From the UHGV virus genome UHGV-1407433: a stretch of 25,186 bases of DNA; one strand, given 5' to 3'. A program made the translations under genes and the position numbers. The notes under the pieces were generated by a model that saw only the letters and a program-made list of their open reading frames with translations, made no database searches and was not told the DNA's origin. Shown here piece by piece: positions 911-21,437 of this stretch. Within the stretch, counting starts at the first letter, position 1, and each line of letters opens with the position of its first letter. The DNA comes from a virus.

Positions 911-972
911 TTATTCAATCCATCAACTAAAATACCATGTAAACGAATTGCCATAACATTTCCTACTTTATT

Positions 973-1000
973 TGACTTACTCAACACAACAAGTATATTA
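973..1000 (+). promoter_or_regulatory. Candidate sigma70 promoter for the lipoprotein moron (-35 TTGACT 973-978; -10 TATATT 994-999, 15-bp spacer)
   Basis: Hexamers read by eye about 40 bp upstream of the SD of the 1037..1270 ORF. Spacer is short, so this is tentative. Confidence 0.25.
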
Positions 1001-1036
1001 AAATTGAACCTTGTCAACAACCTAAAAGGAGTCCCG

Positions 1037-1302: not shown

Positions 1303-4300
1303 TTATTCAGAGAATGAACCTGAACCGCGCGACACTATGACGGTCGGTGAGTTTATATACGCACCCATACCATTTTGAGCAGATACTCTAATTTTCACTG
1401 TAACCCACCTGCTATATACTGCTGATGAGTGCATCACAAGGCGCTCGGTGCCATCAACGGAAAGATTTTTCTCTGAACCGTTAATGTTTATTGTACACCC
1501 ACCAAAACCTTTTACGTTTGCCATAACGCAGATATGTCTGCTATGTGCTGCGTCAGATGTGTCATTGTATGTGATTGTTTTTTCGAGTACCCCATTATTT
1601 AATCTACTAACGTCAGATCCTGTGTACATGTTTGCAACATCACCGATAAACGAACTTGCTTCCACTGTTCCAGTAAATCTACCGTTGGTTGCATACACTG
1701 TACCTGTGAAAGATCCGTTGCTAGCGTATACAGTACCTCTGACAGTTACGTTGTTGAATTCAGCATCTCCAGCTTTATTCAACTTCCAGCCAGCAGAACC
1801 AGCAACATAATTGTTCGACTGGATAAAATTACCAATCTTTGCGTTGCTGATAGTGCCGTCCTGGATGAAACTGTCCCGGATGAATGTCTGCCCGTTCTGG
1901 ATCACAAACGGTAAAGCCACGCTATTTCCGGCTGCCGTGGTGACGGCGAAGCGATCAGCCAGGAAGATAACCTGCGACTGCATGCCGGATGGCGTATTCT
2001 CCACGCCGATACCCATCCCCGCGGCGTAATACTGCCCGTTGCTGGAGACACCAACCTTGATGTTGTACATCGCGATGAGGTCGCCGTTTACGTTCGCTAT
2101 AGCCTGAGCGTTGGTGGTGATGGCTGAGGTATGCCCGTTCACCGTAGCCGTAATGCCGTTTATCTGCGTGGCCGTTGCCTGCTGATAGTCGGAGAACGTC
2201 TGATTCAGGCTGTTTATGGATGCCTTGTTGCCGTTGACATCCGTCTGCAGGCTCAGCAGAGAGCGCGCCGTTGCCTCCTTCTCGTTAACGATTACCTCAT
2301 CAATACGATCCAGCTGCGCACTGTTACCGGCGACCGTCGCGGAAAGCCTTTTGCGTGTGGCCACCTGCGCCAGCCCGTTCTGGATAATGGCAATGGCTGA
2401 GTTCTTGACCCCGCCCGTCATGCCGTCCATAGACACGCTGATGCTGTCGATTCGCTGGCCCAGCGCGGTATCAGCCGTTGCGACGGTCTGCTCAAGATCT
2501 GATAGAGAGGAAGATACATCACCGACCGTGCTCGAAAGCTCATTAACACTGGTCTGAACCTGCCCAATGTCCTGCGCGTTTTTTGCGATTTCCTGCGCCT
2601 GGAGCTCAAGTTCATCGTTGGCCTGTTTGATGTCGTCAGCCATGCCAGCAATTTTTTCATTGCTGTCCACCGCGTTCTCGATCAGGTCTTTGAACGTATC
2701 GGAGTCTTTAATTTCCTCCAGAATCACATCTGTGATATCGGAAACATCGATGCTGGCCTGTCCTCGCACCCATTCTGTGTACCCTGATTCGTTGCCGCTG
2801 CGGTCCACCAGCTGCGCGCGGTACCAGAAAATCTGCCCAGCCTTAAGGCCCATCTGCTGATATTTGCGCTGCGGGTAAGGCACATCGGCCAGCAGCATGG
2901 CATCGTCTTCAGTACCGGTCAGGCTGTACTGAATTTCCGTCTTCAGCGTGTCGTCGGTATTCGCCTGGAATCCCCAGTTCAGCTCGATACCGAACACCAC
3001 GTTTTCAGAGGCGATAAAGCCAACCGGCTTCGGTGGATTGCCCACTTTACCCGTCAGCGTTTTCTCTTCTGAATAGCCCCATCCGGATGAAATTTCTGCG
3101 GCATTGATTGCGCGCACCCGCACCAGGTAGCGCCCGGCATAAATCCCCGGGACGTCGAATGACGTGGTGGAGGTGCGCGGCACGTTAACCCAGTTCCCGT
3201 CGTTGCGGCGCCATTGCGCTTCATAGGCGATAGCGTTCTGCGCCTGGTCCCAGCTCACGCGCATTGTTTCGACGCTGATATTTTGCTGAACCACGGAAAA
3301 CGAGCTGATCACGATATTCGCAGGCGGCGACTGGTTGCCCGGCGGGATCACGCTCACCGGCCGTTGGTCAATGATGGCTCCGGTATCGATACGGGCATAT
3401 TTATCCGGGTCGTGCCATGCGCCGGTAATCGAGAAAGTGCCATCATTGTTATCGGAAACGCTGACAACACGATACTGCTGCGCGTAAAGCTCGTCAGATT
3501 CAACCACCCAAACAGCTTCGGCCTGTGGCGTCTCACTGTATGCCGTGGTGACTGTGACTGATTCCCCGTTCACGGCCTGAATGGTCCTGCTCTGCGACGC
3601 TCCGGAAGGCAGGTTGAGAATAAGGCGATCACCTGGTGCTGCATCAGCTACGCGGTCAAGTTTGATAACGCGACCGTTAACGGCGCTGATGCGGCCGCCC
3701 ATAACCTTTCCGGAAAGCAGCTCGTCTGCCACGGCGATGATGTAGCCCGGCTGCGGAATGTTTCCGTCCAGCCCGACATCAAACGAAACAACGCGATCCT
3801 TGTTATTGGTGAGAATACCCCAGCGCCCCTTTCGGTTCGCCTCTGACTGCCTGGTGCAGCCGATGGCTGTCATTTCCAGCTGATTGAAGCCGTACCGCGC
3901 CACCAGCGCCTGCTCAAATACCGGCTCCATCGCGTCGGCATAAGCGTTACCCGGGTCTGACCATGAAACCAGCGCTGTGGTGTAGCGGCTTTTGGTGGTG
4001 CTGCCCGAATAGGTAAAGCGCCCATTAACCACGTTTGCACGCGTGTAGCTGTAATCCACATCGCGGGGCATATCCGCCAGCGCAACGATTTGATCGCCAC
4101 CCCAGTACGTCATGCCCCGGAATATCGCCGCAAAATCACGTAACACGGTATAGGCGTCATTCCTCTCCTGCACGTACACGTTACAGGTATAGCGAGGCTC
4201 AGTGCCGCTACCGCCTTTACCATCAGGAACCGGCTGATCGCAATATTGCGCGACCTGATAAAGCGTCCATTTATCAATATTGGCCGCCGTCAGGCGATTG

Positions 4301-5193
4301 CCCAGCCCAAAGCGGTCGCTCACCACCAGATCGTAAAAAATCCAGGCTGGATTATCCGTCCACGCCCACTTAAACGCCCCTGTCCATGTGCCGCTGTAGG
4401 TGCGGGTCTCCGGGTCATACGTATCCGGAACGCGGATTACACGCCCTCGCGGTTCGCAGGATATTTGCGGGATAGAGCCGTTAAACTGGCTTGAGTCGAA
4501 TTCGATGTACAGCAGCGCGGTATTTGGATAACGCAGTTTGGCGTCAATAACCTCTGTGTAGCTCTGCAGCGTCATCGTGTCGCCAATTTTCGCGCTGTTG
4601 GCATCCGCCGTAAGCTTACGCAGGCGCACCGTCCATGTACTGCCTGCCTGTGGTAAATCGATACGATGGCTGCGTTCGTAGCCGGAAGTTGTCTTGCCGG
4701 TTACGCTGGTATTAAGTACCGTCTGCCAGGTGCCGCCATCGGTCTGCAGATCAATAGCGTAGTTAATTGAATAGCCAACCAGATCGCCATCATCCTCCTG
4801 TTTAAAAAGCGATGGCCACTTGAGGCGCAGGCGAACGGCTGACAGTTGCGTGTTGGTAAAGGTATGTGTCCAGCCGGTGGTGCTTGACACTTCGGTGCCC
4901 ACGCTGATTTCATTTTCTGTGCCGGGGATACCCTGAATATATTTTTGTGCCTGAGTCCCCGGACGAAATTCCCACGCCACGCCACTGAAGTTTTGCGATC
5001 CGTCTGCATTCTCCAGTGGCGTGCCATCGAGATAGATATCCTTCGCCGTCAACTGCCCTGCAAATTCGCCCTCTCCCAGTGCAACAAGAATTTTGGCTTT
5101 CGCTACGGACTGGAGATCGTCTGGTTGTTCAGTCGGGGTGCGTGAACTGGAGCTGCCGCCCTTGCGGCCTCTAATCGGAGTAGATGTAGCCAT
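1303..5193 (-). CDS. J: Tail tip / host specificity protein J (central tail fibre), 1296 aa
   Basis: ATG at 5193..5191. Long protein at the lambda J position downstream of I. Conserved J-family core (e.g. ...NPAWIFYDLVVSDRFGLG..., ...GTEPRYTCNVYVQERNDAYTVLRDF...) with a divergent C-terminal receptor-binding region. Confidence 0.93.
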   Translation of the reverse strand: MATSTPIRGRKGGSSSSRTPTEQPDDLQSVAKAKILVALGEGEFAGQLTAKDIYLDGTPLENADGSQNFSGVAWEFRPGTQAQKYIQGIPGTENEISVGTEVSSTTGWTHTFTNTQLSAVRLRLKWPSLFKQEDDGDLVGYSINYAIDLQTDGGTWQTVLNTSVTGKTTSGYERSHRIDLPQAGSTWTVRLRKLTADANSAKIGDTMTLQSYTEVIDAKLRYPNTALLYIEFDSSQFNGSIPQISCEPRGRVIRVPDTYDPETRTYSGTWTGAFKWAWTDNPAWIFYDLVVSDRFGLGNRLTAANIDKWTLYQVAQYCDQPVPDGKGGSGTEPRYTCNVYVQERNDAYTVLRDFAAIFRGMTYWGGDQIVALADMPRDVDYSYTRANVVNGRFTYSGSTTKSRYTTALVSWSDPGNAYADAMEPVFEQALVARYGFNQLEMTAIGCTRQSEANRKGRWGILTNNKDRVVSFDVGLDGNIPQPGYIIAVADELLSGKVMGGRISAVNGRVIKLDRVADAAPGDRLILNLPSGASQSRTIQAVNGESVTVTTAYSETPQAEAVWVVESDELYAQQYRVVSVSDNNDGTFSITGAWHDPDKYARIDTGAIIDQRPVSVIPPGNQSPPANIVISSFSVVQQNISVETMRVSWDQAQNAIAYEAQWRRNDGNWVNVPRTSTTSFDVPGIYAGRYLVRVRAINAAEISSGWGYSEEKTLTGKVGNPPKPVGFIASENVVFGIELNWGFQANTDDTLKTEIQYSLTGTEDDAMLLADVPYPQRKYQQMGLKAGQIFWYRAQLVDRSGNESGYTEWVRGQASIDVSDITDVILEEIKDSDTFKDLIENAVDSNEKIAGMADDIKQANDELELQAQEIAKNAQDIGQVQTSVNELSSTVGDVSSSLSDLEQTVATADTALGQRIDSISVSMDGMTGGVKNSAIAIIQNGLAQVATRKRLSATVAGNSAQLDRIDEVIVNEKEATARSLLSLQTDVNGNKASINSLNQTFSDYQQATATQINGITATVNGHTSAITTNAQAIANVNGDLIAMYNIKVGVSSNGQYYAAGMGIGVENTPSGMQSQVIFLADRFAVTTAAGNSVALPFVIQNGQTFIRDSFIQDGTISNAKIGNFIQSNNYVAGSAGWKLNKAGDAEFNNVTVRGTVYASNGSFTGTVYATNGRFTGTVEASSFIGDVANMYTGSDVSRLNNGVLEKTITYNDTSDAAHSRHICVMANVKGFGGCTININGSEKNLSVDGTERLVMHSSAVYSRWVTVKIRVSAQNGMGAYINSPTVIVSRGSGSFSE

Positions 5194-5202
5194 ATTGCGC
5201 CC

Positions 5203-5228
5203 ATAAAAAAGGCCACCCTGAGGTGGCC
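5203..5228 (-). terminator. Intrinsic-terminator-like hairpin between I and J
   Basis: Perfect 7-bp stem GGCCACC / GGTGGCC with 4-nt loop (5211-5228); on the minus strand it is followed by TTTTTT (complement of A-run 5205-5210). Lies 20 nt upstream of the J start codon. Confidence 0.5.
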
Positions 5229-5245
5229 TGAAAGGAGGTTTTTAT

Positions 5246-5836
5246 TTATTGCTGGTCTTCGACATAAATCCCGGCAGAAATAATCGCACCGCCGATTTGC
5301 CGACGACCATAAAGAAGCGGTACCGGATAGCCCTGCGCGGCGGTGTTGGTGACTCCACCGAACGCGTATGAGGCGCGGTTATCTGAACTCTGTTTGCTGG
5401 CCAGCCCCGCTGGTTGAGGGGAAAGCATCTGAACAACCCCGCCAATCATCATTGCGGCACCGAATTTGTATAAGAATGGTGATGCCGCAGCCCAGGGTGT
5501 GAAATTAAGCACCGCCCCAACGGCAACCAGAACTGCACCAAGTATTGTCTGGAGTAATCCGGCCTTTTTGCTCCCGATAATCACCGGGACAATGCGAATG
5601 ACATCGCCGGTGACCGGGTAACCCAGGTCATCAACACCAATATTCTTTTTCCCTTTGAATACTGAATAAGTGAGACCACGGCGTTGGCTGGAAATCATAA
5701 ACTGCTCAAAGCCCGGTATAGTCTTTGCCAGCGCAACACTCGCTTCGTTCACGCGGGAAATCAGGCGATGGTGAACTTTACCGAATGTTTTCCCGAGCAC
5801 GCCGCCAAGCTCAATGCGGGTCATTACTTCCTGCAT
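5246..5836 (-). CDS. I: Tail assembly protein I
   Basis: ATG at 5836..5834 with AGGTGA SD. 196 aa with a hydrophobic Gly/Ala-rich C-terminal half typical of lambda gpI family. Position between K and J. Confidence 0.85.
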   Translation of the reverse strand: MQEVMTRIELGGVLGKTFGKVHHRLISRVNEASVALAKTIPGFEQFMISSQRRGLTYSVFKGKKNIGVDDLGYPVTGDVIRIVPVIIGSKKAGLLQTILGAVLVAVGAVLNFTPWAAASPFLYKFGAAMMIGGVVQMLSPQPAGLASKQSSDNRASYAFGGVTNTAAQGYPVPLLYGRRQIGGAIISAGIYVEDQQ

Positions 5837-6555
5837 GTTTCACCTGCCATTACATCTTTATAGCGAACGATCTTCATTGTGCGCTCCTGCCAGTATCCGC
5901 CATAAGGAACACGTTGACTCAGATGCCCGTAAAGATGGTGCAGCAGCATGTTACCCTCCAGTAAAATCCCGGCATGATTCCACTTATCGGCCTGCACCTG
6001 CATGATGACGAGGTCCCCTTCCTGAGGCGGACCATCAAACTCCCTGAATCCGCACTCGTACCAGCACTCCTGATAGAAATTGTCCGGGTAGTCGTTTTCC
6101 CACCAGGGATAATCCACCCGGTAATCGTGGAGCTCGATACAGTGGGTCTGCCGGAAATAGCTCATTACCAGACCCCAGCAATCGAAGTGGCCAAGCACGA
6201 ACGGACGCTCCAGCAATGGCAGCTCCCCGCGTGGCTGAATGGTACGTAAATCCCCCTCTGGCCAGCTCACAATATGCCAGGGCAGCAGCGTTGCATCACA
6301 CTGCGCCTTATCCAGCTCGCTGGCCTGCGTCGTCGCATCAGGATGGCTGTGAACAATGGCCACCACCGTCCCCCAGTCTTCTGCCGCTGCGTAATCTTCG
6401 GGGGACAGGTGAAAATGTTCAGTCGGCTCTGCTGCGAGATTACGACAGGGAAAATAGCGCTCAACCCGGCTTTTCTGTGCCACCACGCCGCAGCACTCTC
6501 GCGGATATTCCGCTGCAGCGTGTGCCATGATGGCATCAATGGTTTTCTGGCGCAT
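5824..6555 (-). CDS. K: Tail assembly protein K (JAB/MPN metalloprotease-like plus NlpC/P60-like domains)
   Basis: ATG at 6555..6553 with AGGAG 6 nt upstream, 1 nt after the L stop (the ORF track starts earlier at TTG). Motifs ...ECCGVV... and ...HSHP... fit a JAB/MPN fold. Position between L and I. Confidence 0.85.
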   Translation of the reverse strand: MRQKTIDAIMAHAAAEYPRECCGVVAQKSRVERYFPCRNLAAEPTEHFHLSPEDYAAAEDWGTVVAIVHSHPDATTQASELDKAQCDATLLPWHIVSWPEGDLRTIQPRGELPLLERPFVLGHFDCWGLVMSYFRQTHCIELHDYRVDYPWWENDYPDNFYQECWYECGFREFDGPPQEGDLVIMQVQADKWNHAGILLEGNMLLHHLYGHLSQRVPYGGYWQERTMKIVRYKDVMAGETCRK

Positions 6556-6556
6556 A

Positions 6557-7312
6557 TCAGCTCCTGATAAGAGATGTACCGGGGAAACCGCCAAACGGCA
6601 GCTCGTTGCTGTCTCCGTGCCGGAGCTTGCAGGCCGTCAGCGTGCCGTTGCAGACATCCAGCGATGGATCGTCAACCGGATTATTGTTTTTGTCGAAATA
6701 GCGCGTTCCGGCATAGTCGCAGCCGTCGCCGGTCCGGTACTTGTTCCGGATGCACCAGCTGCATAACGAATGCAGCTGCCGCGTGGGTATCATCTGGCCC
6801 TGTAAATCCATCGGACTGGAAAGCGTAAATTCAACAGATTCATCCGTCTCGGTGCTTCTGGCATCGATATAAAAGACCTTCAGCTTTTCCTGTGACGGGT
6901 CTGCAGTGGGATTGCCCTGCGGAAAATTTCTGGCGTCCAGATACTGTGCCAGCGTGTCGTGGATACTCACTTTCGCCTGCAGCAGATCGTCATACGCCAG
7001 ACAGAGCGCTGAGATCGAGCTGTCCAGGTTCGCCACACTCAGTTTTGGCTGTGGACTGGTACCGTCCGTAGTCGCTTCAATACCCTCAACCTGACACGGC
7101 CAGGCTTTATACTCCTCCCCCTGCCACCAGATGGACTTCGCCGGAAGTTTATTCTCATCCCCGCCTGCAGCCTCAATCTCTTCCGGGGTATGCGCGATAT
7201 TATGTGCGTGGAAGCGGAGTACATCTGACATACCGAACGCTGTGCCATCGACAGAAAAAAGCCGGACTTCATTGCCCGGCTCGAGTTTTTGATAATCAGC
7301 ATTAAGACTCAT
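6557..7312 (-). CDS. L: Minor tail protein L
   Basis: ATG at 7312..7310. 251 aa with a C-terminal Cys cluster (CSWC...C...C) as in lambda gpL. ATGA overlap with M. Confidence 0.9.
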   Translation of the reverse strand: MSLNADYQKLEPGNEVRLFSVDGTAFGMSDVLRFHAHNIAHTPEEIEAAGGDENKLPAKSIWWQGEEYKAWPCQVEGIEATTDGTSPQPKLSVANLDSSISALCLAYDDLLQAKVSIHDTLAQYLDARNFPQGNPTADPSQEKLKVFYIDARSTETDESVEFTLSSPMDLQGQMIPTRQLHSLCSWCIRNKYRTGDGCDYAGTRYFDKNNNPVDDPSLDVCNGTLTACKLRHGDSNELPFGGFPGTSLIRS

Positions 7313-7656
7313 GGTGCAAATGCCTGTTCAAACGTTGCGGTTACGGTTATCACTTTTACGTTTTTAACCACCTTTTTGAGCGTGTCAGCCTCGACACGCC
7401 ACAGCGCGGTATCGCCGAAAGGCGGTGTGAAAATAAACGACTTCACTTTATGCCGCCGAAGGAAAGCGTGAATTTCATTCGCTGTAGTCGGATCCCCTGA
7501 AAAGGAATATTCATAGGTACGAATCTCATCATTCAGGCCGGAGCCGCTCACCTGTGCGTACCCGTCGCCGAACTGGACCTTCCTGACTGTGTCTTTGCTT
7601 CCCTCGGTGGGCTGGCTGGAAACCTTAATGCCCCAGGGGAATGTTTCTATCGTCAT
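7309..7656 (-). CDS. M: Minor tail protein M
   Basis: ATG at 7656..7654. 115 aa, located between H and L as in lambda. Confidence 0.88.
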   Translation of the reverse strand: MTIETFPWGIKVSSQPTEGSKDTVRKVQFGDGYAQVSGSGLNDEIRTYEYSFSGDPTTANEIHAFLRRHKVKSFIFTPPFGDTALWRVEADTLKKVVKNVKVITVTATFEQAFAP

Positions 7657-7661: not shown

Positions 7662-10067
7662 TTACCTGCGATTGGTCGCATTCCAGATAAGCCCACCGGG
7701 CTGGATTGCCCTGGCGATACCATCGTTGACAGATTTGTTAATCACCTGCTGATACGCCTTACCCAGCCTGTCTCCGTCGTTTTGCTGCTGTGCGTTACCG
7801 GAAGCATTCTCGACCGTCACCGGGGCATATACACTGACACCGAAAGGTGCTGCAGCCGGGCCTGTACCACCGCCCCCGACATACCCACCCGTGGCATACC
7901 CTTTCATCATCCGGTAAAGATTGCCGACGCCGATCCGGCTGGTAGCCTCTTTGGTGAAAACAAATTCACCACGGTGAACGACACCTGCAGGTTCATATTT
8001 CCCGCCTGAACCGGTATAACCGCCACCTGCAAATCCCAGCGCGGTTGTCGCTGAATCCACCAGGCCTACCATCGCCTGTTTCAGCAGGATCTGTGTCAGC
8101 ATGGAGAGCGTGGAGCGGGTGAAGTCAGCCCAGTCAGCCTTTCCGCGCGTCAGCATGTCAGCCATATTTTGCCCGATGCCATCAAACGCACTGGTGGCAG
8201 CCGACTTCATCTGGCCATAAGCATCTGAAGCAGAATCAACATAATCTGCCCATGCGGATTTGGCTCCGGACTGCCAGTCGTCCCGCAGCTTATCCTGCTC
8301 GGCGTAATACGCCTGCAGCGCCTGCAGCTCATTCTGATAACCAGCATCGTTCTCCGAACCACCACCATTTTTCCAGCCCTGAAGAAGCTGGGCCTCTTCA
8401 TTGCGACGTTGTGCTGCACGACTGCTCATACCAGCACTTTCCGCAAGGGCTCGGGTTTTCTCGCCGATCTGCGTGACGTATTTTTGGGACGTATCCTGCA
8501 GGCGATTAAGCCGCTCCTGCGCCACTATCTGATCGCCGAGCTTCGCATTCAGCTCCGCACGGGAAAGCACCTCACTTTTACTGGCCAGCAGGGATTTTTC
8601 CTCAGCAGAAAGCGTTCGGGTCTTCGCGGCCTCTTCCAGAACCGTAAAGCGGGACTGCTGACGCCACAGCTCCTGACGCTGCTGGCTGATGGTGTCATTG
8701 ATGCTCTTATGCTCCTGCAGGGTGCGCAGCTGTGTCTGTAGCTCCAGCGTCTGGGCACTGGCCGTATCGGTGGCACGGGCACCTGCGGGGGTTCTGATTG
8801 CCGGGGTCTTCTTCGGCTTTTTAAGGGTGTCTTCGTACTCTTTTTTCGCGGCGGCCAGGTTGATGTTGTAGTCAGCCTGGAGGATCCGCCCCTCTTTCAG
8901 AGCCTTATTGAGCTCGCTCTGCCTGGCCGTGTATTTCTCAAGGGCAGTTTGGGTTTTGGCATAGTTGGCCTGAGCCTGCGCGGCATATTTCTGACGATCG
9001 GACTCTGCGACCGCTTCACGGGAAGCATTCTCTTCGTTCGCTTTGGCAATACCAGCCTGCTGCTGCGCCATATCCAGCGCAAGCCTGGCCGTTTCACGAT
9101 CATTCCAGAACCGGGCGCGGGCCTCATCATTCACATAATGATCGCCTTTACGCAGATTCCAGATTTCATCAGCCTTTTTAAACGCGGCCTGGGCTTTTGC
9201 CACCATCTCCTGGGCGGTGTCAGGTCTGCCAATATCAAGTGCAGCATCCCACATCGACTTGAAGGCACGCTTCAGGGAATCCGCTGAAGACTCAATCGTC
9301 CCCATATTGTCGCGGATGGCCTTGGTCTGATCGTTGAATCCGGCAGTAGCAGCCTGATTAGCCGCCTGCAGTGCGCCAGCCTCATCACCGGCACGCTGCA
9401 GCTGTGCCACATGGGCAATCTGTTCGGCCGTAACGTTGTGGAACTGCTGAGCCATCGCGATCAGGCCTGATGTAGGGTCAGTAGTGAGCTTGCCGTATGC
9501 GGCTGCGACTTTTTCCACCGGCACGCCGGAGGCATCAGTAAATCGCGCCACCGCCTGGCTCATTTCATCAAAGCGCGAACTCGCGCCCACCCCCGCGTTG
9601 ATAAGCTCGCTCAGGGCTTCGCTGGTCTGATTGAACGTCAGCCCCGCTGCCTGGCCGTTTCGTGCCAGCGCCAACATACGATCGGCAGTCAATCCGGCCG
9701 TGTTCCCCGACAGTACCAGCGTTTTGTTGAAGTCAGATAGTGTGGATGAGCCCTGGTACCAGGCATAGAACAGCGCACCCGTTGCGGCGGACAGCGCACC
9801 GATGCCGACCATCAACGGTGAGATCGTACCCAGTAAGGCCCGGAATGTTGGTATTATCCCGCCAAAGGAGTCCTTAACCTGACCGCCCTGCTGAAGCAGA
9901 ATCAGCCATGGGTTCTGCCCGCCCGCTAGCTGCGTAGCTATATCGGTAAACTGCGCCGGAAGCATACGCATTGCTGCGTTATACTGGCCTATTGAAATAT
10001 TCGAGGTATTCAATACGCTGCAGCGCCGACAGCTGGAACAATGTGACGCTGCTGCCGTTACTTTCAA
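7662..10067 (-). CDS. H: Tail tape measure protein H, 5'-truncated by a deletion; no intact native start (probably defective)
   Basis: Extensive similarity to lambda gpH starting at ...ISIGQYNAAMRMLPAQFTD... which corresponds to about residue 60 of lambda H; C-terminal ...YEPAGVVHRGEFVFTKEATSRIGVGNLYRMMKGYATGGYVG... conserved. The first ~23 codons of the track ORF (TTG start) are G-homologous DNA read out of frame. First in-frame ATG is at 9971..9969, 8 nt after the stop of the G remnant. Confidence 0.8.
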   Translation of the reverse strand: MKVTAAASHCSSCRRCSVLNTSNISIGQYNAAMRMLPAQFTDIATQLAGGQNPWLILLQQGGQVKDSFGGIIPTFRALLGTISPLMVGIGALSAATGALFYAWYQGSSTLSDFNKTLVLSGNTAGLTADRMLALARNGQAAGLTFNQTSEALSELINAGVGASSRFDEMSQAVARFTDASGVPVEKVAAAYGKLTTDPTSGLIAMAQQFHNVTAEQIAHVAQLQRAGDEAGALQAANQAATAGFNDQTKAIRDNMGTIESSADSLKRAFKSMWDAALDIGRPDTAQEMVAKAQAAFKKADEIWNLRKGDHYVNDEARARFWNDRETARLALDMAQQQAGIAKANEENASREAVAESDRQKYAAQAQANYAKTQTALEKYTARQSELNKALKEGRILQADYNINLAAAKKEYEDTLKKPKKTPAIRTPAGARATDTASAQTLELQTQLRTLQEHKSINDTISQQRQELWRQQSRFTVLEEAAKTRTLSAEEKSLLASKSEVLSRAELNAKLGDQIVAQERLNRLQDTSQKYVTQIGEKTRALAESAGMSSRAAQRRNEEAQLLQGWKNGGGSENDAGYQNELQALQAYYAEQDKLRDDWQSGAKSAWADYVDSASDAYGQMKSAATSAFDGIGQNMADMLTRGKADWADFTRSTLSMLTQILLKQAMVGLVDSATTALGFAGGGYTGSGGKYEPAGVVHRGEFVFTKEATSRIGVGNLYRMMKGYATGGYVGGGGTGPAAAPFGVSVYAPVTVENASGNAQQQNDGDRLGKAYQQVINKSVNDGIARAIQPGGLIWNATNRR

Positions 10068-10089
10068 GCAGCTCGCTCTTTAGAAACAT
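9979..10089 (-). pseudogene. G: Remnant of tail assembly chaperone G (36 codons); T region absent
   Basis: ATG at 10089..10087 at the expected place after V. Translation MFLKSELLESNGSSVTLFQLSALQRIEYLEYFNRPV* matches lambda gpG (about 140 aa) only over the first ~27 residues, then reads into H-homologous DNA and stops. Confidence 0.7.
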
Positions 10090-10125
10090 AATTACTCCGG
10101 GGGAACGGGGCTTTCGCCCCGGTTA

Positions 10126-10863
10126 TCAGGAAACAGTGACTTTGCAGATCGCCACAAAGTTACCGTCATTGCTCATTACGATGATCTCGACGGTGCCTGC
10201 CGCCACGCCGGTAACAGTCAGGGTATTGCCGCTGACGGTGACCGTTGCTTTTGACGGATCAGAACTGGCTACGCGGAAAGACTTATCTGAAGCACTTGCT
10301 GGCAGGACAGAAACAACCAGTTGCGTCGTGGCCGCGACAGCCACAGCCGCCGTGGATTTATCCAGGCTGATCCCCGTAACGGCAATCGGCGCGGTACCAC
10401 TGTCTTCGGCCAGCGATGGTTTGCCATTGTTGGTGATTTTTGCCGTGCGGGTCATGACCTCTTTAGACGAGATGGTCTTGCCGAGACTGCTCACCCAGCC
10501 CTTAAAGACATCGACAACACCATTCGGATATTTGATTTTATACCCCTTCACGGTGCCTTCATCGAACCAGTTCACCAGGTCCTGCTGACCGGAATCCTCC
10601 GGCATCCATGCGAGCGTCAGGTTTGTTTCACCGGCTGATTTCTGCCCCTGCATCGTTGATGTCCAGTCGGCATTCTCATCATCGATGTAGGTGTCATCTT
10701 CCGATTCAGCTGTCAGTTCTCCGGGCTGCAGGTCTTTAATCTTTGCCAGGCGCAGCCAGTCAACGTCTGAAAGCGGATTGGCGTATGGATCACCAGTTCC
10801 GGTGTAAACCCAGAGGGTGGTACCAGCACCTTTTGTTGGTGCCAGCGGGTTTGGTGTGGCCAT
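10126..10863 (-). CDS. V: Major tail protein V (with C-terminal Ig-like domain)
   Basis: ATG at 10863..10861. 245 aa, ...[26 protein letters not shown]...FKGWVSS... closely resembles lambda gpV. Confidence 0.95.
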
Positions 10864-10870: not shown

Positions 10871-11269
10871 TCACATGTCGTAAGTAATGGAATATTTCAG
10901 GTCGGCAGAACTCCACAGCGCCATATCGTCATCGCGCTGGTAGTCATAGCCCTGCTGAACCATTGTGGTGATAAGAGATTCAAGCCCCGGAACCTCTGCG
11001 AGAACCGGATACACTCTCGTCTCCATCCAGTCATCCAGATCAGAATCAGGTACCTGAGCCTCAAGAAAGACTTCGATATGCAGAATGGCCTGCCAGCTAT
11101 CGGCGTCCAGTTCTTCCCCTGTGTATTCCGCATCTGTCAGGTAGACGGCAACAGCGGGAAAATCACCCTCTTCGAGCACTGCAGGTCTGCCGTCAAAATA
11201 AATGACATCAGTACCAATCGCGCTTTCCAGCGCGTCAATAATCACCTTGCGAATATCGCTGTGTTTCAT
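10871..11269 (-). CDS. U: Tail terminator protein U
   Basis: ATG at 11269..11267. 132 aa, ...[31 protein letters not shown]... closely resembles lambda gpU. Overlaps the Z stop. Confidence 0.95.
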
Positions 11270-11820
11270 CGTGTCAGAATTAACCTGAGTTGGTTGGTAA
11301 GGGATGCCCGGAGCTCTTTGGGCATATCTGACTCCATGAGCTTCGGCAGTTCTTCTTTAAATGCCGTAGTTAATGGAGCTGCCAGCGGGATGCTGACCAC
11401 TTCAATGGGGTAACGAGGTTTTGAAGTCCGCCTCATGACATGCCAGCGACCATTTTTAAGTTGCTGGATAAAGCCGCCCGGAAAACGAAATGGCCCTATG
11501 CGCAGAACGCTGTTGGCCCCTTTCTTGTCCCGTTTTCTGCGGGAAAGTCGCACGCTTGCGGTACCGAGTTTAATGGCCGGTAAATTTCCCCGGTTTACCC
11601 GGATAAGTGCACGAGGTCTATTGACCGTCGCACGCTTCACCCTGGCGCGTTGCTTTACCAGTTTTCGCGGTACGCGCGTATCTTTTGATACGACTGCCAC
11701 GCTGCGGCTGACGGCCCGGTTTGCCACGCGGTTAACGGCCTGCGCCGATGCCCGCGGAACAGCCGTTTTGCTGATGCTGTTAAGGTTTTCTATGGCCTGT
11801 TCAAGGCCTTTTATGGACAT
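11266..11820 (-). CDS. Z: Tail completion protein Z
   Basis: ATG at 11820..11818. 184 aa, basic protein at the lambda Z position between FII and U. Confidence 0.9.
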   Translation of the reverse strand: MSIKGLEQAIENLNSISKTAVPRASAQAVNRVANRAVSRSVAVVSKDTRVPRKLVKQRARVKRATVNRPRALIRVNRGNLPAIKLGTASVRLSRRKRDKKGANSVLRIGPFRFPGGFIQQLKNGRWHVMRRTSKPRYPIEVVSIPLAAPLTTAFKEELPKLMESDMPKELRASLTNQLRLILTR

Positions 11821-11829
11821 ATGCGCTCC

Positions 11830-12183
11830 TTAACGGCGACGCGAAGATGCAGGTGGAGAGCCGTTACCCAGACAGATATGACAGGAGCCACAGTCATCCG
11901 GACCAATACGTTCAACCCAGAATTGCCGACCGTTAATCGTCAGCGTGTCCATACGCTGCAGCTGCCTGACAGTGGCGGTTTCCACAAACAGGGTCGGGCT
12001 GGTTCCTTCAACACGAATCCCGGCACCGGCATATCCGATATTTTCTGGATCATCGAATACACCGACCAGGGTGGCACCTGACAAAGCGCCTGACATCACC
12101 TTTGCCTCTGTGCCCATCACACCACGGATAGCGCTATCAGCTCGCGACATGGCCTCGTCAAAGAGATTATCGAAATCAGCCAT
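11830..12183 (-). CDS. FII: Head-tail joining protein FII
   Basis: ATG at 12183..12181. 117 aa, MADFDNLFD...GVFDDPENIGYAGAGIRVEG... closely resembles lambda gpFII. Confidence 0.95.
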   Translation of the reverse strand: MADFDNLFDEAMSRADSAIRGVMGTEAKVMSGALSGATLVGVFDDPENIGYAGAGIRVEGTSPTLFVETATVRQLQRMDTLTINGRQFWVERIGPDDCGSCHICLGNGSPPASSRRR

Positions 12184-12193
12184 GTGGCCCCCT

Positions 12194-12619
12194 TCAGACT
12201 TCGAAAGCCAGCCCCTTTGCGATCAAGTCGTCGGCATCCTGTTCAGATACGCGGATAATCACACCAGGCTCTACGATAGATACCGGCTCGTTACGCGTGG
12301 CATGCAGAGCGTCAATATGCAGGGTGGCCAGCGTTTCTACTGATACCAGGTCACCCGTTGTGGCCGATTCCGTTTTTACTTTTGCCACGTTAGCAACATT
12401 GTTGTCGGTGCTGTCGGTGCTGTCGGTGCTGTCGGTGCTGTCGGAAGCATTCTGCACGCCGTTTTCACCGTCAACTGACCCGGCATTGCCATCCAGTTCC
12501 TCTTCAAGCTCAGCAATACGCATCGTCAGTTCCTGAATGGTGCCGCTGGTACTGACCTCGCGGTTAAGCTGGGTCCCAAGTTCATTCAGGCGGGCGACCA
12601 GCTTTTCTTTTTCTGTCAT
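12194..12619 (-). CDS. FI: DNA packaging protein FI, with a (STD)4 repeat in the inter-domain linker
   Basis: ATG at 12619..12617 with GGAG upstream (the track ORF adds 12 residues). MTEKEKLVARLNELGTQLNREVS... and ...HIDALHATRNEPV... resemble lambda gpFI. Confidence 0.9.
   Translation of the reverse strand: MTEKEKLVARLNELGTQLNREVSTSGTIQELTMRIAELEEELDGNAGSVDGENGVQNASDSTDSTDSTDSTDNNVANVAKVKTESATTGDLVSVETLATLHIDALHATRNEPVSIVEPGVIIRVSEQDADDLIAKGLAFEV
12408..12443. repeat. Perfect 9-bp x4 tandem repeat (GTGCTGTCG on plus strand) inside FI, encoding (STD)4
   Basis: Seen directly at 12408-12443, with a partial fifth copy at 12401-12407. Lies in the Asp/Ser/Thr-rich linker of FI. Confidence 0.9.
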
Positions 12620-12637
12620 GGGAAATACTCCAGAAAG

Positions 12638-12655
12638 GTGGCCCGACAGGGCCAC
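12638..12655 (-). other. Stem-loop between E and FI (7-bp GC stem, weak U-tract)
   Basis: GTGGCCC-GACA-GGGCCAC at 12638-12655; on the minus strand it is followed by CTTTCTG, about 15 nt before the FI start. Confidence 0.4.
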
Positions 12656-12664
12656 TGGGGGAAG

Positions 12665-13690
12665 TTATGCCAGTTTGACGGAGACGAATGCGTCAGGGTC
12701 TGGCAGCAGCATCAGCGGAGCTGACTGAATCATGGTGAATTCGCGCGCCGGATCCCCCGACTGCACCCAGTTTTTCGGGTAGCGTGTCGAGGCATTGATA
12801 CCTTCGCGCTGGGCATCAGCATCAAGAATGCAGCCATAGGTACGCAGGCCACGAGCCTGGGTATTCCCCAGCACCATTGTCAGGTCCGGCAGATAATTCT
12901 TTTTGACGTCGTTTTCGACGTACTGGCCGGAGTACACCACGATGGCCACATCGCCAAACATCCCCTTGTATGAAACAGCCATACCCAGGTCTTTCACGGC
13001 AGTTTCCAGCTCAGAGTTAGAACCACGACGCGTATCCAGCTTCTTCTCAACAGCCTTGAAGGAACGGAACAGCGCCCAGCCTTTCGGATCGAACACAATG
13101 ATGTTGACCACACCGCTGGCGTTGAGCGCGTAGGCTTCAATGTCATCGGTCGGGTCATACGTTTCTTTGTCGCGGGTTGACCATGCAGCCGCACCGGCCT
13201 GGACAATGTTGTTACCAGCGCTGCGGCCCATATCGACTTCAACAGGCTCGAACGCTTCCCCGGTCATGGTGTATTTACCGCTGAGCACCGCCGAAACAGC
13301 CTGTTTCTCTTCGACCTGAGCAATCGCCAGCTCTTCATCCTTCATGTTCTGAAGGATAATGCGGCGACGGCGATAGACCGGGTCAGCGAGATTCTGCGGA
13401 TCCTCATCCGGCAGGCGGCGGAGAGTCATCAGTGGGTTAACTTCGTGTTTCGGCTTCACATAACCCGGCGTGAATTCAGACGTGCTGCCGCCACGGGAGC
13501 GGATCACTTTGCCGGAGACAATCGGCGAGACGTAAAGCGCCATATTGACCAGGCCAGGAATTTGCGACAGGTAAACCTTCTCTGTACTGAAGGGATAGGT
13601 TTCGCGGAAAAAGATACGCAGGAAAAGCGGATCGAATTTGAATTTCTTCTCATTGACCGCCAGCAGTTGGGCAGTGGTGTAAACGGACAT
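12665..13690 (-). CDS. E: Major capsid protein E
   Basis: ATG at 13690..13688. 341 aa, same length as lambda gpE and very similar throughout (MSVYTTAQLLAVNEKKFKFDPLFLRIFFRE...). Confidence 0.97.
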   Translation of the reverse strand: MSVYTTAQLLAVNEKKFKFDPLFLRIFFRETYPFSTEKVYLSQIPGLVNMALYVSPIVSGKVIRSRGGSTSEFTPGYVKPKHEVNPLMTLRRLPDEDPQNLADPVYRRRRIILQNMKDEELAIAQVEEKQAVSAVLSGKYTMTGEAFEPVEVDMGRSAGNNIVQAGAAAWSTRDKETYDPTDDIEAYALNASGVVNIIVFDPKGWALFRSFKAVEKKLDTRRGSNSELETAVKDLGMAVSYKGMFGDVAIVVYSGQYVENDVKKNYLPDLTMVLGNTQARGLRTYGCILDADAQREGINASTRYPKNWVQSGDPAREFTMIQSAPLMLLPDPDAFVSVKLA

Positions 13691-13702
13691 AGATTTTTCC
13701 CG

Positions 13703-13725
13703 TAAAAAAAGCCGCGCAAGCGGCT
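13703..13725 (-). terminator. Strong intrinsic-terminator-like hairpin between D and E
   Basis: 6-bp stem AGCCGC / GCGGCT with tetraloop (13710-13725); on the minus strand it is followed by seven T (complement of A-run 13703-13709). Confidence 0.55.
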
Positions 13726-13757
13726 TTTATGAATGATGATGGTTGTAGAAATGCGGA

Positions 13758-14090
13758 TTAAACGATGCTGATTGCAGTACCGGCGAACGCGTTACGTTTA
13801 ATGTTGTCGTCGGTGACGGCAGATGGCCAGAGGACATCTTCAATACGGAAAGAGCCAGATTTGTAATATGCCAGTTCCGCGCTGTTCTGGTCTGCGGTTA
13901 CAGCCAGAACGCCCACAGCCTCGCCAGCATGAGTACCATCCCAGGCGGTCAGCTTGCCAGAGGTAGCATCCAGCATGAGCGGTGTCATGGCTGGGGTGGA
14001 TGCCGTCAGTTCGCCTGGACCATACGCGGTGTGCGCCGGGTCGCTGTTACCAAGCGGCTGGGTATGTGTGAAAACTTCGGTAATTACCAT
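13758..14090 (-). CDS. D: Head decoration protein D
   Basis: ATG at 14090..14088. 110 aa, same length as lambda gpD, ...GNSDPAHTA...AMTPLMLD...[10 protein letters not shown]. Confidence 0.96.
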
Positions 14091-14099
14091 GATTGCCTC

Positions 14100-14513
14100 T
14101 TAAACGGGAGTATTTAACAAATCATCAACGGAATCAGTCGATGCGTTGCCTGCTGATACTGCACCTGGTGCAGCTTCCATCAGGCGATCCAGTGCCGTAT
14201 CGGTACGCGCCTGGGCACTTTGCGGTGCAGCAGCCAGAATGCGCTGTGCGCTCTCGACCGTCATTCCCGGCGTTTCGGCCAGTACGCGAGCCTGTGACTC
14301 TCGCCCTTTCGCCTCTTCGCAGTTCAGGATCCCCATGATGCGACCGTTCTCTGCTGCTACTGCTGCAGAGACCTGAGCACTCACATCTACTGGAGACATT
14401 GCGGCAGTAGTGGTTGCGTCAACCGTGGTGACCTGCTCAGCCGGTGCAGTAGTCTGAGTAGCTGACTGGTCGGCTGGATTATTGGTCGCTGCAGATGCAG
14501 AAGGTGATGGCAT
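14100..14513 (-). CDS. Nu3: Scaffolding protein Nu3, nested in-frame in the 3' end of C (137 aa)
   Basis: Internal in-frame ATG at 14513..14511 preceded by GGAGG at 5-nt spacing inside the C reading frame. Same architecture as lambda C/Nu3. Confidence 0.6.
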   Translation of the reverse strand: MPSPSASAATNNPADQSATQTTAPAEQVTTVDATTTAAMSPVDVSAQVSAAVAAENGRIMGILNCEEAKGRESQARVLAETPGMTVESAQRILAAAPQSAQARTDTALDRLMEAAPGAVSAGNASTDSVDDLLNTPV

Positions 14514-15443
14514 AGTTCCTCCAAGGGTTGTTTTTTTGCGTCTGTCGAGTGCTTCGCGCATCACGCCGAGCGCATCGGTATTGTTAACAAGTTCATCCGC
14601 CAGCCCGTTATCCACGGACTCCTGGCCGGAAAATACTGCCGCTTCGGTGTTCAGTACGTCCTGAACGGACATACCGGTATAAGCGGAAACTTTTTCGGCA
14701 AACATCTGACGGGTGGCATCGATACGCGTCTGGAAATCAGCACGCACATCTTCAGGGAGCTTTTCGTAAGGGTTGCCGTCGACCTTGTGATCTCCGCTGT
14801 AAATCAGCGTGACCTCAACGCCGTTAGTTTTTAGCGCAGCACCATAGTTGCTGTGCGCCATCATTACCCCGATGGAGCCGGTTCTGGCCGTTTGCGTGAC
14901 CAGCCGTCGCGATGCCGAACTAGCAATAAGCTGACCTGCACTGCAGTTCATGTCATTGGCCAGCGCCCAGATGGGTTTGATATCGCGCATACGGGCAATA
15001 ATGTCAGCGCAGTCAAATGCCCCTGACACCATTCCACCCGGCGTATCCATGTCCAGCAGAATGCCGTCGACGCCGGGGTCACTGATGGCCTGCTGCAGGC
15101 GAGCGATGATCCCGTTGTAACCCGTCATCCCGGAATAAGGCTGCAGCGCACGGGTTTTACTCACCAGAGTGCCGGAAACCGGCAAGACCGCGATACCATT
15201 TGCCACCTGATAGCTGCGCGATGGTCGGGGTTCCATGTCATCATCATCACCAAACAGTGCCAGCGGTTCGGCTATTTGTCCGGCATCAAGCGTGATGCCG
15301 GAGACGGTATCTGTCAGCCGGGTGATGCCCAGCTGGCCAGCCAGTGCGCAAAAGAAAACCCGCGCGTAGGCGGGTTCAAGCATCAGCGGCTCATTAAAGG
15401 CCATACTGGCGATATGCGGAAGATTACGCAGCTCGTGCGCCAT
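14100..15443 (-). CDS. C: Head maturation protease C (ClpP/S49-like)
   Basis: ATG at 15443..15441. 447 aa, protease-fold N-terminal two thirds plus an Ala/Thr/Ser-rich scaffold-like C-terminus. Overlaps the 3' end of B as in lambda. Confidence 0.93.
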   Translation of the reverse strand: MAHELRNLPHIASMAFNEPLMLEPAYARVFFCALAGQLGITRLTDTVSGITLDAGQIAEPLALFGDDDDMEPRPSRSYQVANGIAVLPVSGTLVSKTRALQPYSGMTGYNGIIARLQQAISDPGVDGILLDMDTPGGMVSGAFDCADIIARMRDIKPIWALANDMNCSAGQLIASSASRRLVTQTARTGSIGVMMAHSNYGAALKTNGVEVTLIYSGDHKVDGNPYEKLPEDVRADFQTRIDATRQMFAEKVSAYTGMSVQDVLNTEAAVFSGQESVDNGLADELVNNTDALGVMREALDRRKKTTLGGTMPSPSASAATNNPADQSATQTTAPAEQVTTVDATTTAAMSPVDVSAQVSAAVAAENGRIMGILNCEEAKGRESQARVLAETPGMTVESAQRILAAAPQSAQARTDTALDRLMEAAPGAVSAGNASTDSVDDLLNTPV

Positions 15444-17016: not shown

Positions 17017-17219
17017 ACGTAAAACCCTGCTGGCCCCCGGCGTCGTGATGTGGTGCCAACCTGAGATTCAAGGTCAGCAATATATTTTTTGAGATCGCTG
17101 ACTGAAGTGGCTGTAAATTCCACTCTTCGACCGTCTTTCTGTACCGTCGCCACGCGCTTTCCCATCATCAGGTCATGTAACGCAGCGCGCGCGGCATCCA
17201 GTTCAGTCTGTGTTGCCAT
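17013..17219 (-). CDS. W: Head completion protein W
   Basis: ATG at 17219..17217, overlapping the A stop (TAATG). 68 aa, ...[43 protein letters not shown]...[10 protein letters not shown], near-identical to lambda gpW. Confidence 0.97.
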
Positions 17220-19836: not shown

Positions 19837-19848
19837 CGGACGCCGCCC
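19837..19848 (-). other. cos: cosN (cohesive-end site) within a lambda-like cosQ-cosN-cosB region (about 19662-19878)
   Basis: Minus strand reads ...GGGTCCTTTCCGGCGATCCGCCTTGTTACG | GGGCGGCGTCCG | CGCAGATTCTCGCTATTTATGAAAATTTTC..., closely matching the lambda right-end/left-end junction as I recall it (lambda cohesive end GGGCGGCGACCT). Confidence 0.8.
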
Positions 19849-20417: not shown

Positions 20418-20527
20418 GATTTATTTCCTTTTAGGCGTGAGCCTGTCGCACGGCAAAGCCGCCGAAAGTTAACGGTTTGCCCAGGCTCACAGCTGAAAGA
20501 CTTTCTACGATGTGCGCGTGCGATGCG

Positions 20528-21435: not shown

Positions 21436-21437
21436 GA

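What the first reader, a model, noticed from the sequence alone, without database searches (positions are those of the whole stretch)
9960..10125. Deletion fuses the start of G to the interior of H: tail chaperones G/GT lost and tape measure decapitated
Downstream of V there is an intact G start (SD plus ATG at 10089) whose product matches lambda gpG for only about 27 residues, then stops after 36 codons. The DNA continues directly into H homology beginning at about lambda H residue 60 (ISIGQYNAAMRMLPAQFTD), in a different frame. By comparison with lambda order V-G-T-H, roughly 0.9-1 kb is missing: G codons ~29-140, the T extension with the G-T frameshift site, and the first ~59 codons of H. 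In lambda G/GT are required for tail assembly, so this prophage is probably tail-defective, even though heads, terminase, cos and lysis genes look intact. The first in-frame H ATG (9971..9969) lies 8 nt after the G-remnant stop, so a truncated H could still be made by termination-reinitiation.
Basis: partly seen in the sequence, partly recalled or inferred. Interest (0 to 1): 0.6.

Follow-up and report, generated by a model that had tools for sequence, protein, structure and literature searches.

The report
Fresh deletion cripples prophage tail genes
An E. coli lambda-like prophage has very recently lost 818 bases that remove its two tail-assembly chaperones and the start of its tail-length ruler. 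This is ordinary prophage decay, except that three other deletions from other samples start at the same nucleotide.

Summary
On the minus strand the window carries the late operon of an N15/mEp237-type lambdoid phage. Compared with phage mEp237 and five intact prophage copies (isolate assemblies plus one sequencing-run assembly), it lacks exactly 818 bp. Those five copies are 100.000% identical over 11.3 kb of flanking DNA.

The junction is at window 9998/9999, with only a 2-bp (TA) microhomology. It joins G codon 31 out of frame to H codon 60/61. Lost are G codons 31-140, all of T and its frameshift region, and H codons 1-60. A 36-aa G stub and a possible 769-aa H remain.

All 121 comparable loci examined are intact: 31 complete E. 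coli genomes, 7 phage records, 5 plasmids and 78 IMG/VR contigs. The short form is therefore not a natural variant. The same junction occurs in three ENA assemblies named in three different contig styles, so misassembly is unlikely. All other head, tail, cos and lysis genes are full length. The element is most likely a newly tail-defective prophage; that phenotype is inferred, not shown.

One unexpected result remains unexplained. Three other deletion alleles (1.1, 4.9 and 9.8 kb) from unrelated samples share the same left end-point to within 1 nt.

The parts
10126..10863 (-). Major tail protein V, intact (245 aa), immediately upstream of the lesion
   Evidence: 100% identical to mEp237 V. The exact protein is indexed in 2040 blocks of the public collection, and G/T/H are intact in all 10 places shown.
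10090..10125 (-). V-G intergenic region with a GC stem-loop (CCGGGGCGAAAGCCCCG) and the G Shine-Dalgarno (GGAG)
   Evidence: Read directly. Identical to mEp237.
9979..10089 (-). G remnant ORF, 36 aa: 31 authentic G residues, then 5 out-of-frame residues (FNRPV) and a stop
   Evidence: Pfam Phage_TAC_2 positions 1-34 of 126. Intact G is 140 aa.
9998..9999 (-). Deletion junction: the TA dinucleotide shared by both parental breakpoints. 818 bp are missing here.
   Evidence: The left 503 nt and right 400 nt are 100% identical to mEp237 and overlap by 2 nt. The same result is obtained against five intact copies with 0 mismatches in 1378+9957 nt.
7662..9997 (-). Retained part of tape-measure gene H (codons 61-838). 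The longest ATG-initiated ORF starts at 9971 (Met70), giving 769 aa.
   Evidence: tblastn against mEp237 H matches from residue 48 (the first ~12 aligned residues lie in the G-stub region), 98% identity; authentic H begins at Ile61 by nucleotide mapping. Pfam TMP_2 (from model position 17) and Tape_meas_lam_C. Start-codon list.
9972..10067 (-). Upstream extension of the H frame through the G stub (TTG 10067). Listed as part of an 801-aa ORF but probably not a real start.
   Evidence: No convincing SD by eye. No gene with this product is on record, whereas the gene callers chose ATG 9971.
1303..7656 (-). Downstream tail genes, all full length: M (7309-7656), L (6557-7312), K (5827-6555), I (5246-5836), J (1303-5193)
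   Evidence: tblastn against mEp237: full-length coverage for M, L, K and I (99-100% identity); J matches over residues 1-1113 of 1151 at 86%, its 3' end (window 1303-1758) having no mEp237 match. The exact J protein is on 23 contigs, and 9 of 10 distinct places are intact at G-T-H.
10871..19661 (-). Head and head-tail joining genes Nu1, A, W, B, C, D, E, FI, FII, plus tail genes Z and U, all full length
   Evidence: tblastn against mEp237: full coverage, 93-100% identity.
19837..19848 (-). cosN-like site GGGCGGCGTCCG, with lambda-like cosQ and cosB flanks
   Evidence: The similarity to lambda cos is recalled from knowledge of lambda, not tested.

Best explanation
The window is the late region of an N15/mEp237-type lambdoid prophage of E. 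coli. Intact, otherwise identical copies sit beside a tyrosine integrase next to dusA-pspG.

One lineage suffered a single 818-bp illegitimate deletion between two sites that share only the dinucleotide TA. Candidate mechanisms are microhomology-mediated end joining after a break, or polymerase template switching.

The deletion joins G codon 31 to H codon 60/61 out of frame. As a result, no tail-assembly chaperone gpG can be made. The T reading frame and the G-T frameshift region are gone, so no gpGT can be made. The tape-measure protein has lost its own ribosome-binding site, start codon and first 60 codons.

At best, a 769-aa H lacking residues 1-69 (the head-proximal end) could be made at low level. 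This would require ribosomes terminating at the G-stub stop to re-initiate 7 nt downstream.

In lambda-type tails, gpG and gpGT coat gpH and recruit gpV to begin tube polymerisation. Induction should therefore give DNA-filled heads and lysis but no functional tails. That is a newly defective prophage maintained by vertical inheritance.

Shown here: the deletion, its exact end-points, its rarity, its recency and the intactness of the remaining genes. Inferred: the mutational mechanism, the tail-less phenotype and the prophage state.
For: - **Exact end-points and microhomology:**
- **Isogenic intact copies:** L020, L021, L022, L025 and L026 show 0 mismatches over 1378+9957 nt on either side and differ only by the 818 bp.
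- **Host context:** the intact copies L017-L020 lie next to integrase, dusA and pspG (in L021 the contig ends within the integrase gene). dusA is a known integration target (PMC4482086).
- **Losses:** T is absent, G is present only for residues 1-31, and H is present from residue 61.
- **Other late genes** are full length.
- **Intact architecture elsewhere:** 31 of 31 complete E. coli genomes, 7 of 7 phages, 5 of 5 plasmids and 78 of 78 IMG/VR loci.
- **Same junction in three ENA analyses** with three contig-naming styles; the stub protein is also listed from JGI/IMG.
- **Function of gpG, gpGT and gpH:** PMC5009743. The gpH C-terminus sits in the tail tip and gpH sets tube length: PMC10721106.
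- **Mechanism:** E. coli illegitimate recombination resembles microhomology-mediated end joining (PMC11372144).
- **No new promoter** at the junction.
Against: - No raw reads were seen, so a sample-specific chimera, or a mixture of deleted and intact copies, cannot be formally excluded.
- The three ENA analyses and the JGI/IMG record of the stub protein may all derive from one sample or subject, so independent occurrence of this particular allele is not proven.
- No host flank is present in the window, so 'prophage' rests on the intact relatives.
- The phenotype is extrapolated from lambda to an N15-type module (same Pfam families, not the same proteins).
- A co-resident lambdoid prophage could supply G, GT and H, or whole tails, in trans.
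- The shared left end-point with three other alleles suggests the event may not be a purely random illegitimate deletion.
Confidence: 0.88

Rival explanations
1. Assembly or sequencing artefact: the genome really has intact G-T-H, and the assembler or chimeric reads joined G to H.
For: The allele is known only from metagenome assemblies, one of them a 777-bp contig with coverage 1.44. Reads could not be checked.
Against: Only 2 bp are shared at the breakpoints, so de Bruijn or overlap collapse is not possible. The identical junction appears in contigs with three different naming styles (scaffold_, k119_, NODE_), within 27-kb contigs that are otherwise collinear and 100% identical to intact relatives.
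Confidence: 0.04
2. Natural functional variant: a phage lineage that normally works with a short G and a short H.
For: Tail length is set by H length, so shorter H variants are conceivable. One IMG/VR relative (L109) shows a 27-residue gap between the two H alignment segments.
Against: G and T are complete in all 121 comparable loci. The stub covers 34 of 126 positions of the chaperone domain and ends in out-of-frame residues. H has lost its own start and RBS. The flanks are 100% identical to intact copies, so nothing has co-evolved.
Confidence: 0.02
3. The element is tail-defective on its own but remains transmissible. Its filled heads would join tails made by a co-resident compatible lambdoid prophage, or G/GT/H would be supplied in trans. 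It would then behave like a tail-pirating satellite or a member of a defective-prophage pool.
For: Heads, terminase, cos, the head-tail joining genes (W, FII) and lysis genes are intact. Lambda heads and tails assemble separately and join spontaneously (established knowledge). E. coli commonly carries several lambdoid prophages.
Against: There is no evidence for a helper in the sample. All the element's own tail genes other than G, T and H are still intact, which fits a very recent accident better than an adapted lifestyle. The allele is very rare: 3-4 contigs, against thousands carrying the same V.
Confidence: 0.12
4. The deletion is not random. It was started by a site-specific event (a break, nick, recombinase action or strong polymerase pause) at G codon 31, a hot spot that has produced several independent deletions with one fixed end and variable other ends.
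For: Four different alleles share the left end-point within 1 nt. These are the window (818 bp, TA), P0008 (1102 bp, TAC, inferred from protein only), L028 (4922 bp, ATAC) and L027 (9765 bp, TA). They come from different samples and genomic contexts. A uniform null model gives about 6e-7. The other short G proteins are frameshifts or contig-end partials. Two partial G proteins end at codon 30/31.
Against: No mechanism was identified. There is no CRISPR spacer match, no resemblance to the phage invertase crossover site, no significant ssDNA structure and no mosaic boundary. One allele is known only from a 38-aa protein. L028 is a 1.4-kb, multiply rearranged contig from an assembly of a single public sequencing run (Logan) that could be chimeric. 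Sample provenance was not verified.
Confidence: 0.55

Closest known systems
Phage lambda V-G-T-H tail assembly unit (gpG/gpGT chaperones made by -1 frameshift; gpH tape measure)
   Same: Same gene order and the same Pfam families: Phage_TAC_2, Phage_tail_T, TMP_2 and Tape_meas_lam_C in the intact relatives. The remnant keeps the G start and the H body.
   Different: Here the chaperone is cut to 31 residues, T is absent and H lacks its first 60 codons. The proteins are the N15/mEp237 type, not lambda's own. H is 838 aa here; lambda's 853 aa is recalled, not tested.
Phages mEp237 (JQ182730), N15 and HK225, and dusA-integrated E. coli prophages with the same late module
   Same: The 901-nt query spanning the junction is 100% identical to mEp237. 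Identity is 96.8% over about 70% of the first 25,000 bases of the window. It is 100% over 11.3 kb to the intact prophage copies L020, L021, L022, L025 and L026.
   Different: Those all carry the 818 bp. The window also has a different J C-terminus and an extra 1.9 kb with a KilA-N/P63C gene compared with mEp237.
Defective or cryptic lambdoid prophages formed by deletion (prophage decay)
   Same: An essential morphogenetic function is lost by deletion while the element stays in the chromosome. L027, L028 and L031 show later stages with several deletions.
   Different: This is the earliest possible stage: one lesion, zero substitutions, and every other late gene intact.
Fixed-end deletion series, such as Int-promoted att-anchored deletions of lambda and IS-adjacent deletions (recalled from the literature, not tested)
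   Same: One end-point is constant to the nucleotide and the other is variable. This matches the four alleles anchored at G codon 31.
   Different: No att site, IS end or recombinase site is recognisable at the fixed end. The junctions carry only 2-4 bp of microhomology, and no element remains at the joint.

Membership tests
Lambda-type tail assembly chaperone G (Pfam PF06894 Phage_TAC_2) | Complete chaperone domain of about 126 positions | tested here: not met
   The stub matches model positions 1-34 of 126. Intact G matches 1-126.
Lambda-type G-T programmed frameshift unit | T reading frame (PF06223) overlapping the 3' end of G, so that gpGT can be made | tested here: not met
   tblastn with mEp237 T finds nothing in the window. 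The G 3' end and all of T lie inside the deleted interval, L001 2004-2821.
Lambda-family tape measure protein | TMP_2 N-terminal domain plus Tape_meas_lam_C domain in one ORF with its own start | tested here: inconclusive
   Both domains are detected. However, TMP_2 begins at model position 17, and the native start, RBS and 60 codons are missing. Expression was not testable.
N15/mEp237/HK225-type lambdoid late (morphogenetic) module | Collinear Nu1-A-W-B-C-D-E-FI-FII-Z-U-V-(G-T)-H-M-L-K-I-J with high identity | tested here: met
   All genes except G and T are full length at 86-100% amino-acid identity to mEp237. DNA identity is 96.8% over about 70% of the first 25,000 bases of the window.
Defective prophage | Loss of a gene essential for virion production | tested here: met
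   G, GT and the H start are deleted. Their essentiality is taken from lambda (PMC5009743).
Defective prophage | Integrated in a host chromosome and unable to form plaques | not testable with these tools
   The window has no host flank. Intact twins sit at dusA. The phenotype needs induction experiments.
Microhomology-mediated (illegitimate) deletion | Parental breakpoints share only a few bases, one copy is retained, and no longer repeat or mobile element sits at the joint | tested here: met
   A 2-bp TA is present at both parental sites with one copy kept, and nothing is inserted.
CRISPR (type I-E) escape deletion | A host spacer matching the protospacer next to the fixed end (32 nt followed by an AGG PAM on the other strand) | tested here: not met
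   A 61-nt query over the site hits only gpG genes in 5,426 complete E. coli genomes and no CRISPR array. Spacers with mismatches, or in other strains, are not excluded.
Serine-invertase (Pin/Gin/Cin-type) pseudo-site recombination | Breakpoint resembles the invertase crossover site and its central dinucleotide | tested here: not met
   The crossover sites flanking the invertible tail-fibre segment in L019 are TTCTCCCAAACC-AA-GTTTTG-like. They are unlike GAATACCTCGAATA|CC, and the core is AA rather than TA.

The most novel reading that the evidence does not exclude
G codon 31 of the N15/mEp237-type tail module (…GTATTGAATACCTCGAATA^C^CTG…) is a nucleotide-precise, recurrent deletion end-point. 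An unidentified site-specific process repeatedly starts deletions that run variable distances (0.8-9.8 kb) into the tail genes. Candidates are a nuclease or nickase with one protected end, a recombinase acting at a pseudo-site, or a strong replication pause that drives template switching. If so, it would be a directed route by which lysogens inactivate the tails of this widespread prophage family.
Probability: 0.25. Interest if true: 0.6.

Novelty: new member of a known kind. Interest (0 to 1): 0.35.

Why it matters
In itself this is a textbook snapshot of the first step of prophage decay. It is one clean lesion, with isogenic intact twins available in five public assemblies (four NCBI genome assemblies and one sequencing-run assembly) for direct comparison. 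That makes it useful as a natural G/GT/H-null allele of an N15-type tail module. It is also a caution that 'complete-looking' metagenomic phage contigs may be non-viable.

The recurrent end-point is the part worth following. If it is real, it shows that prophage inactivation in E. coli is not always random, and it gives a defined 20-bp site on which the responsible activity could be sought.

Tried and rejected
- **Public-collection scans for the junction.** The 41-mer, and a degenerate 'left flank not followed by intact sequence' pattern, gave 0 hits in the genome representatives, the JGI metagenome contigs and IMG/VR. The window is therefore not in those collections, and no further alleles were found there.
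- **Reaching the P0008 contig.** Look-ups of predicted downstream H' products (671, 676 and 801 aa) were not on record. The P0008 junction therefore rests on protein sequence only.
- **CRISPR escape.** The retained 32 nt followed by an AGG PAM fits the geometry of type I-E unidirectional degradation. No spacer hit was found in 5,426 complete E. coli genomes.
- **Invertase pseudo-site.** Rejected, because the real crossover sites differ.
- **Hairpin or pause structure.** The DNA fold of ±55 nt gives z = -0.28. A 7-bp inverted repeat, CCTGAAA…TTTCAGG, starts exactly at the break but has a 35-nt loop and is not in the minimum-energy fold.
- **Mosaic or recombination boundary at codon 31.** Rejected, because near relatives are uniformly identical across it.
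- **Chi, pseudo-Ter, phiX gpA-like CAACTTG, IS-end, IS630 'TA' excision and cos-like explanations.** Considered by eye only. None fits the position of the break.
- **Sample provenance.** A literature search for the sample and analysis accessions found nothing. 'GEVE14' as Gevers 2014 is my guess.
- **Short-query protein search.** The first 40 residues of intact G were used instead.
Full report
**What is in the window**

Read on the minus strand, the window is the late operon of a lambdoid phage of the N15/mEp237/HK225 type. In order it carries:
- a lysis cassette;
- a lambda-like cos site (GGGCGGCGTCCG at 19837-19848);
- Nu1, A, W, B, C, D, E, FI, FII, Z, U and V;
- the lesion;
- H, M, L, K, I, J and the start of a side tail-fibre gene.

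tblastn with every late protein of phage mEp237 gives full-length matches at 93-100% identity for all genes except three and J. J matches over residues 1-1113 of 1151 at 86%. G matches over residues 1-34 only, T has no match, and H matches from residue 48 by alignment, with true homology starting at residue 61.

**The observation**

After V (10126-10863) come a GC stem-loop and a GGAG Shine-Dalgarno. The G start is at ATG 10089. A 36-codon ORF ends at TAA 9981-9979. H-homologous coding follows in the +1 frame, and the first in-frame ATG is at 9971.

I aligned the region base by base to mEp237. The left 503 nt and the right 400 nt are each 100% identical, they overlap by 2 nt, and they are 818 bp further apart in the phage. 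The junction is therefore at window 9998/9999. The parental sites are …CTCGAA[TA]CCTGAAAC… in G and …AAGGCGGG[TA]TTTCAATAGG… in H.

In gene terms:
- The break in G falls in codon 31, after nt 90-92.
- The break in H falls at nt 180-182, at codon 60/61.
- Because 818 is not a multiple of three, G reads five wrong codons (FNRPV) and stops.
- The lost DNA comprises G codons 31-140, the whole T frame with the G-T frameshift region, the H ribosome-binding site and start, and H codons 1-60.
- Pfam sees positions 1-34 of 126 of the chaperone domain in the stub. The 769-aa H begins at position 17 of the TMP_2 domain.

**Is it a natural variant?**

No. The intact V-G-T-H arrangement, exactly 818 bp longer, was found in all 121 comparable loci:
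- all 31 complete E. coli genomes that carry this module;
- all 7 phage records, including the plaque-forming phages mEp237, N15 and HK225;
- all 5 N15-like Enterobacter plasmids;
- all 78 IMG/VR loci with enough downstream DNA.

The window's exact V protein is indexed in 2040 blocks of the public protein-position collection. All ten places shown have G of 140 aa and H of 838 aa.

**Is it an assembly artefact?**

Probably not. The exact 36-aa stub and the 769-aa H are on record only on three or four contigs, from ENA and JGI/IMG. I read three of them:
- ERZ28586847 scaffold_164 (27,234 bp);
- ERZ27234110 k119_23193 (27,707 bp);
- ERZ1755190 NODE_2064 (777 bp, coverage 1.44).

All three are 100% identical to the window across the junction. 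Three contig-naming styles imply different assemblers. With only 2 bp shared at the breakpoints, there is no repeat that an assembler could collapse. I could not see reads, and I could not establish that these analyses come from different samples.

**How recent, and from what?**

A look-up of the window's exact J protein found 23 contigs. Nine of ten distinct contexts are intact, and one is the deletion. Five intact copies (GCA_032525685.1, GCA_044082455.1, GCA_015184045.1, GCA_019585065.1 and Logan SRR25249650) show 0 mismatches to the window over 1378 nt on one side and 9957 nt on the other. The 818 bp are the only difference.

Intact copies whose contigs reach the host flank (L017-L020) lie next to a tyrosine integrase, dusA and pspG. 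dusA is a known integration target (PMC4482086). The window is therefore a very recent derivative of a circulating dusA prophage of E. coli.

**Consequences (inferred)**

In lambda, gpG and the frameshift product gpGT bind the tape measure gpH, and the T domain recruits gpV to start tube polymerisation. Neither protein is in the virion, and their ratio is critical (PMC5009743). gpH is a trimer whose C-terminus sits in the tip and whose length sets tube length (PMC10721106).

With G and GT gone, tails should not assemble even if some H is made. H translation would depend on re-initiation at ATG 9971, which is 7 nt after the stub's stop and has no Shine-Dalgarno. The scan found no promoter created at the joint. 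Heads, packaging and lysis should be unaffected.

The likely outcome is a prophage that can still kill its host on induction but releases tail-less heads, unless a co-resident phage supplies tails or G/GT/H.

**An unexpected extra: a shared end-point**

The 90%-identity cluster of the stub, and a search with the first 40 residues of intact G, returned other short G proteins. Some are frameshifts: P0002 in L031, P0025 in noisy JGI contigs, and P0007. Some are contig-end partials. Three are deletions, and all three start where the window's deletion starts.

| Allele | Source | Right end | Size | Microhomology | Basis |
|---|---|---|---|---|---|
| Window | ENA and JGI/IMG metagenome contigs | H nt 180-182 | 818 bp | TA | DNA |
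| P0008 | Logan, 51-kb contig | H nt 467 | 1102 bp | TAC | protein only (EYLEY+CRGTRPD) |
| P0027 / L028 | Logan SRR18391800 | 3' end of K, in frame | 4922 bp | ATAC | DNA |
| P0028 / L027 | Logan ERR3328735, 38-kb remnant beside dacD-sbmC-cobUST | mEp237 position 19412 | 9765 bp | TA | DNA |

Two partial G proteins also end at codon 30/31, as would happen at an assembly fork.

If left end-points were uniform over the detectable part of G, three further hits within ±1 nt would have a probability of about 6e-7. I could not explain this. Four ideas were tested and failed:
- There is no CRISPR spacer against the retained 32 nt next to an AGG PAM.
- The site does not resemble the phage's invertase crossover sites.
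- There is no significant single-strand structure.
- There is no mosaic boundary at this point.

Caveats apply. One allele is known from protein only. L028 is a short, multiply rearranged contig. Sample independence rests on accession numbers.

**Verdict**

As a kind of event it is ordinary: illegitimate deletion as the first step of prophage decay. The recurrent end-point at G codon 31 is the only surprising element and deserves a systematic screen.

Noticed in passing
window 9998-10005 (G codon 31); loci L027 10091-10092 and L028 734-740; protein P0008: Four different deletion alleles (818, 1102, 4922 and 9765 bp) from different samples share the same left end-point, …CTCGAATA(C)|, to within 1 nt. 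Their right ends differ and the microhomologies are 2-4 bp. The mechanism is unknown.
   Followed up: partly
L027 (Logan ERR3328735_89) 2643, 8494 and 10091; L028 (Logan SRR18391800_225042) 510, 734 and 915; L031 1812-1905: Later stages of decay of the same late module. Several microhomology deletions occur per remnant, for example E to Z (1835 bp) and I to J (1901 bp, again TA|CC x GG|TA). RecT-type recombination genes are juxtaposed to head or tail genes.
   Followed up: partly
window 20420-22365: About 1.9 kb between the homologues of mEp237_062 and mEp237_061 is absent from mEp237. It carries a 267-aa KilA-N + P63C domain ORF (21438-22241, minus strand) and a 105-aa ORF with no Pfam hit (21178-21495).
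   Followed up: partly
window 24333-25178 (minus strand): An N6/N4 DNA methyltransferase (PF01555) lies upstream of the holin-lysozyme-spanin cassette. The match starts at model position 43, so the gene probably runs off the window end.
   Followed up: no
window 12403-12444 (within FI, 12194-12655 minus strand): A perfect 9-bp x 4.7 tandem repeat encodes (STD)n in the FI packaging protein. FI length varies from 135 to 147 aa among otherwise near-identical relatives, so this is a repeat-length polymorphism.
   Followed up: partly
window 1303-1759 and 1-530: The J C-terminal (receptor-binding) end has no match in mEp237 J, so it is a different host-range allele. The window ends inside a side tail-fibre gene. 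In intact relatives that gene precedes an invertible tail-fibre segment with a Pin-like invertase (crossover sites TTCTCCCAAACC-AA-GTTTTG in L019), which probably explains the contig break.
   Followed up: partly
L109 3385-5791; L096 2853-5264 (IMG/VR relatives): Two relatives show H alignments with an internal 27-residue gap (L109) or a shortened C-terminal match (L096). These may be natural tape-measure length variants or frameshifts.
   Followed up: no
window 773-1270 (plus strand): A 165-aa ORF lies on the opposite strand between J and the tail-fibre gene and has no Pfam hit. The same ORF is called in intact relatives (L021, L026). It may be a moron.
   Followed up: no
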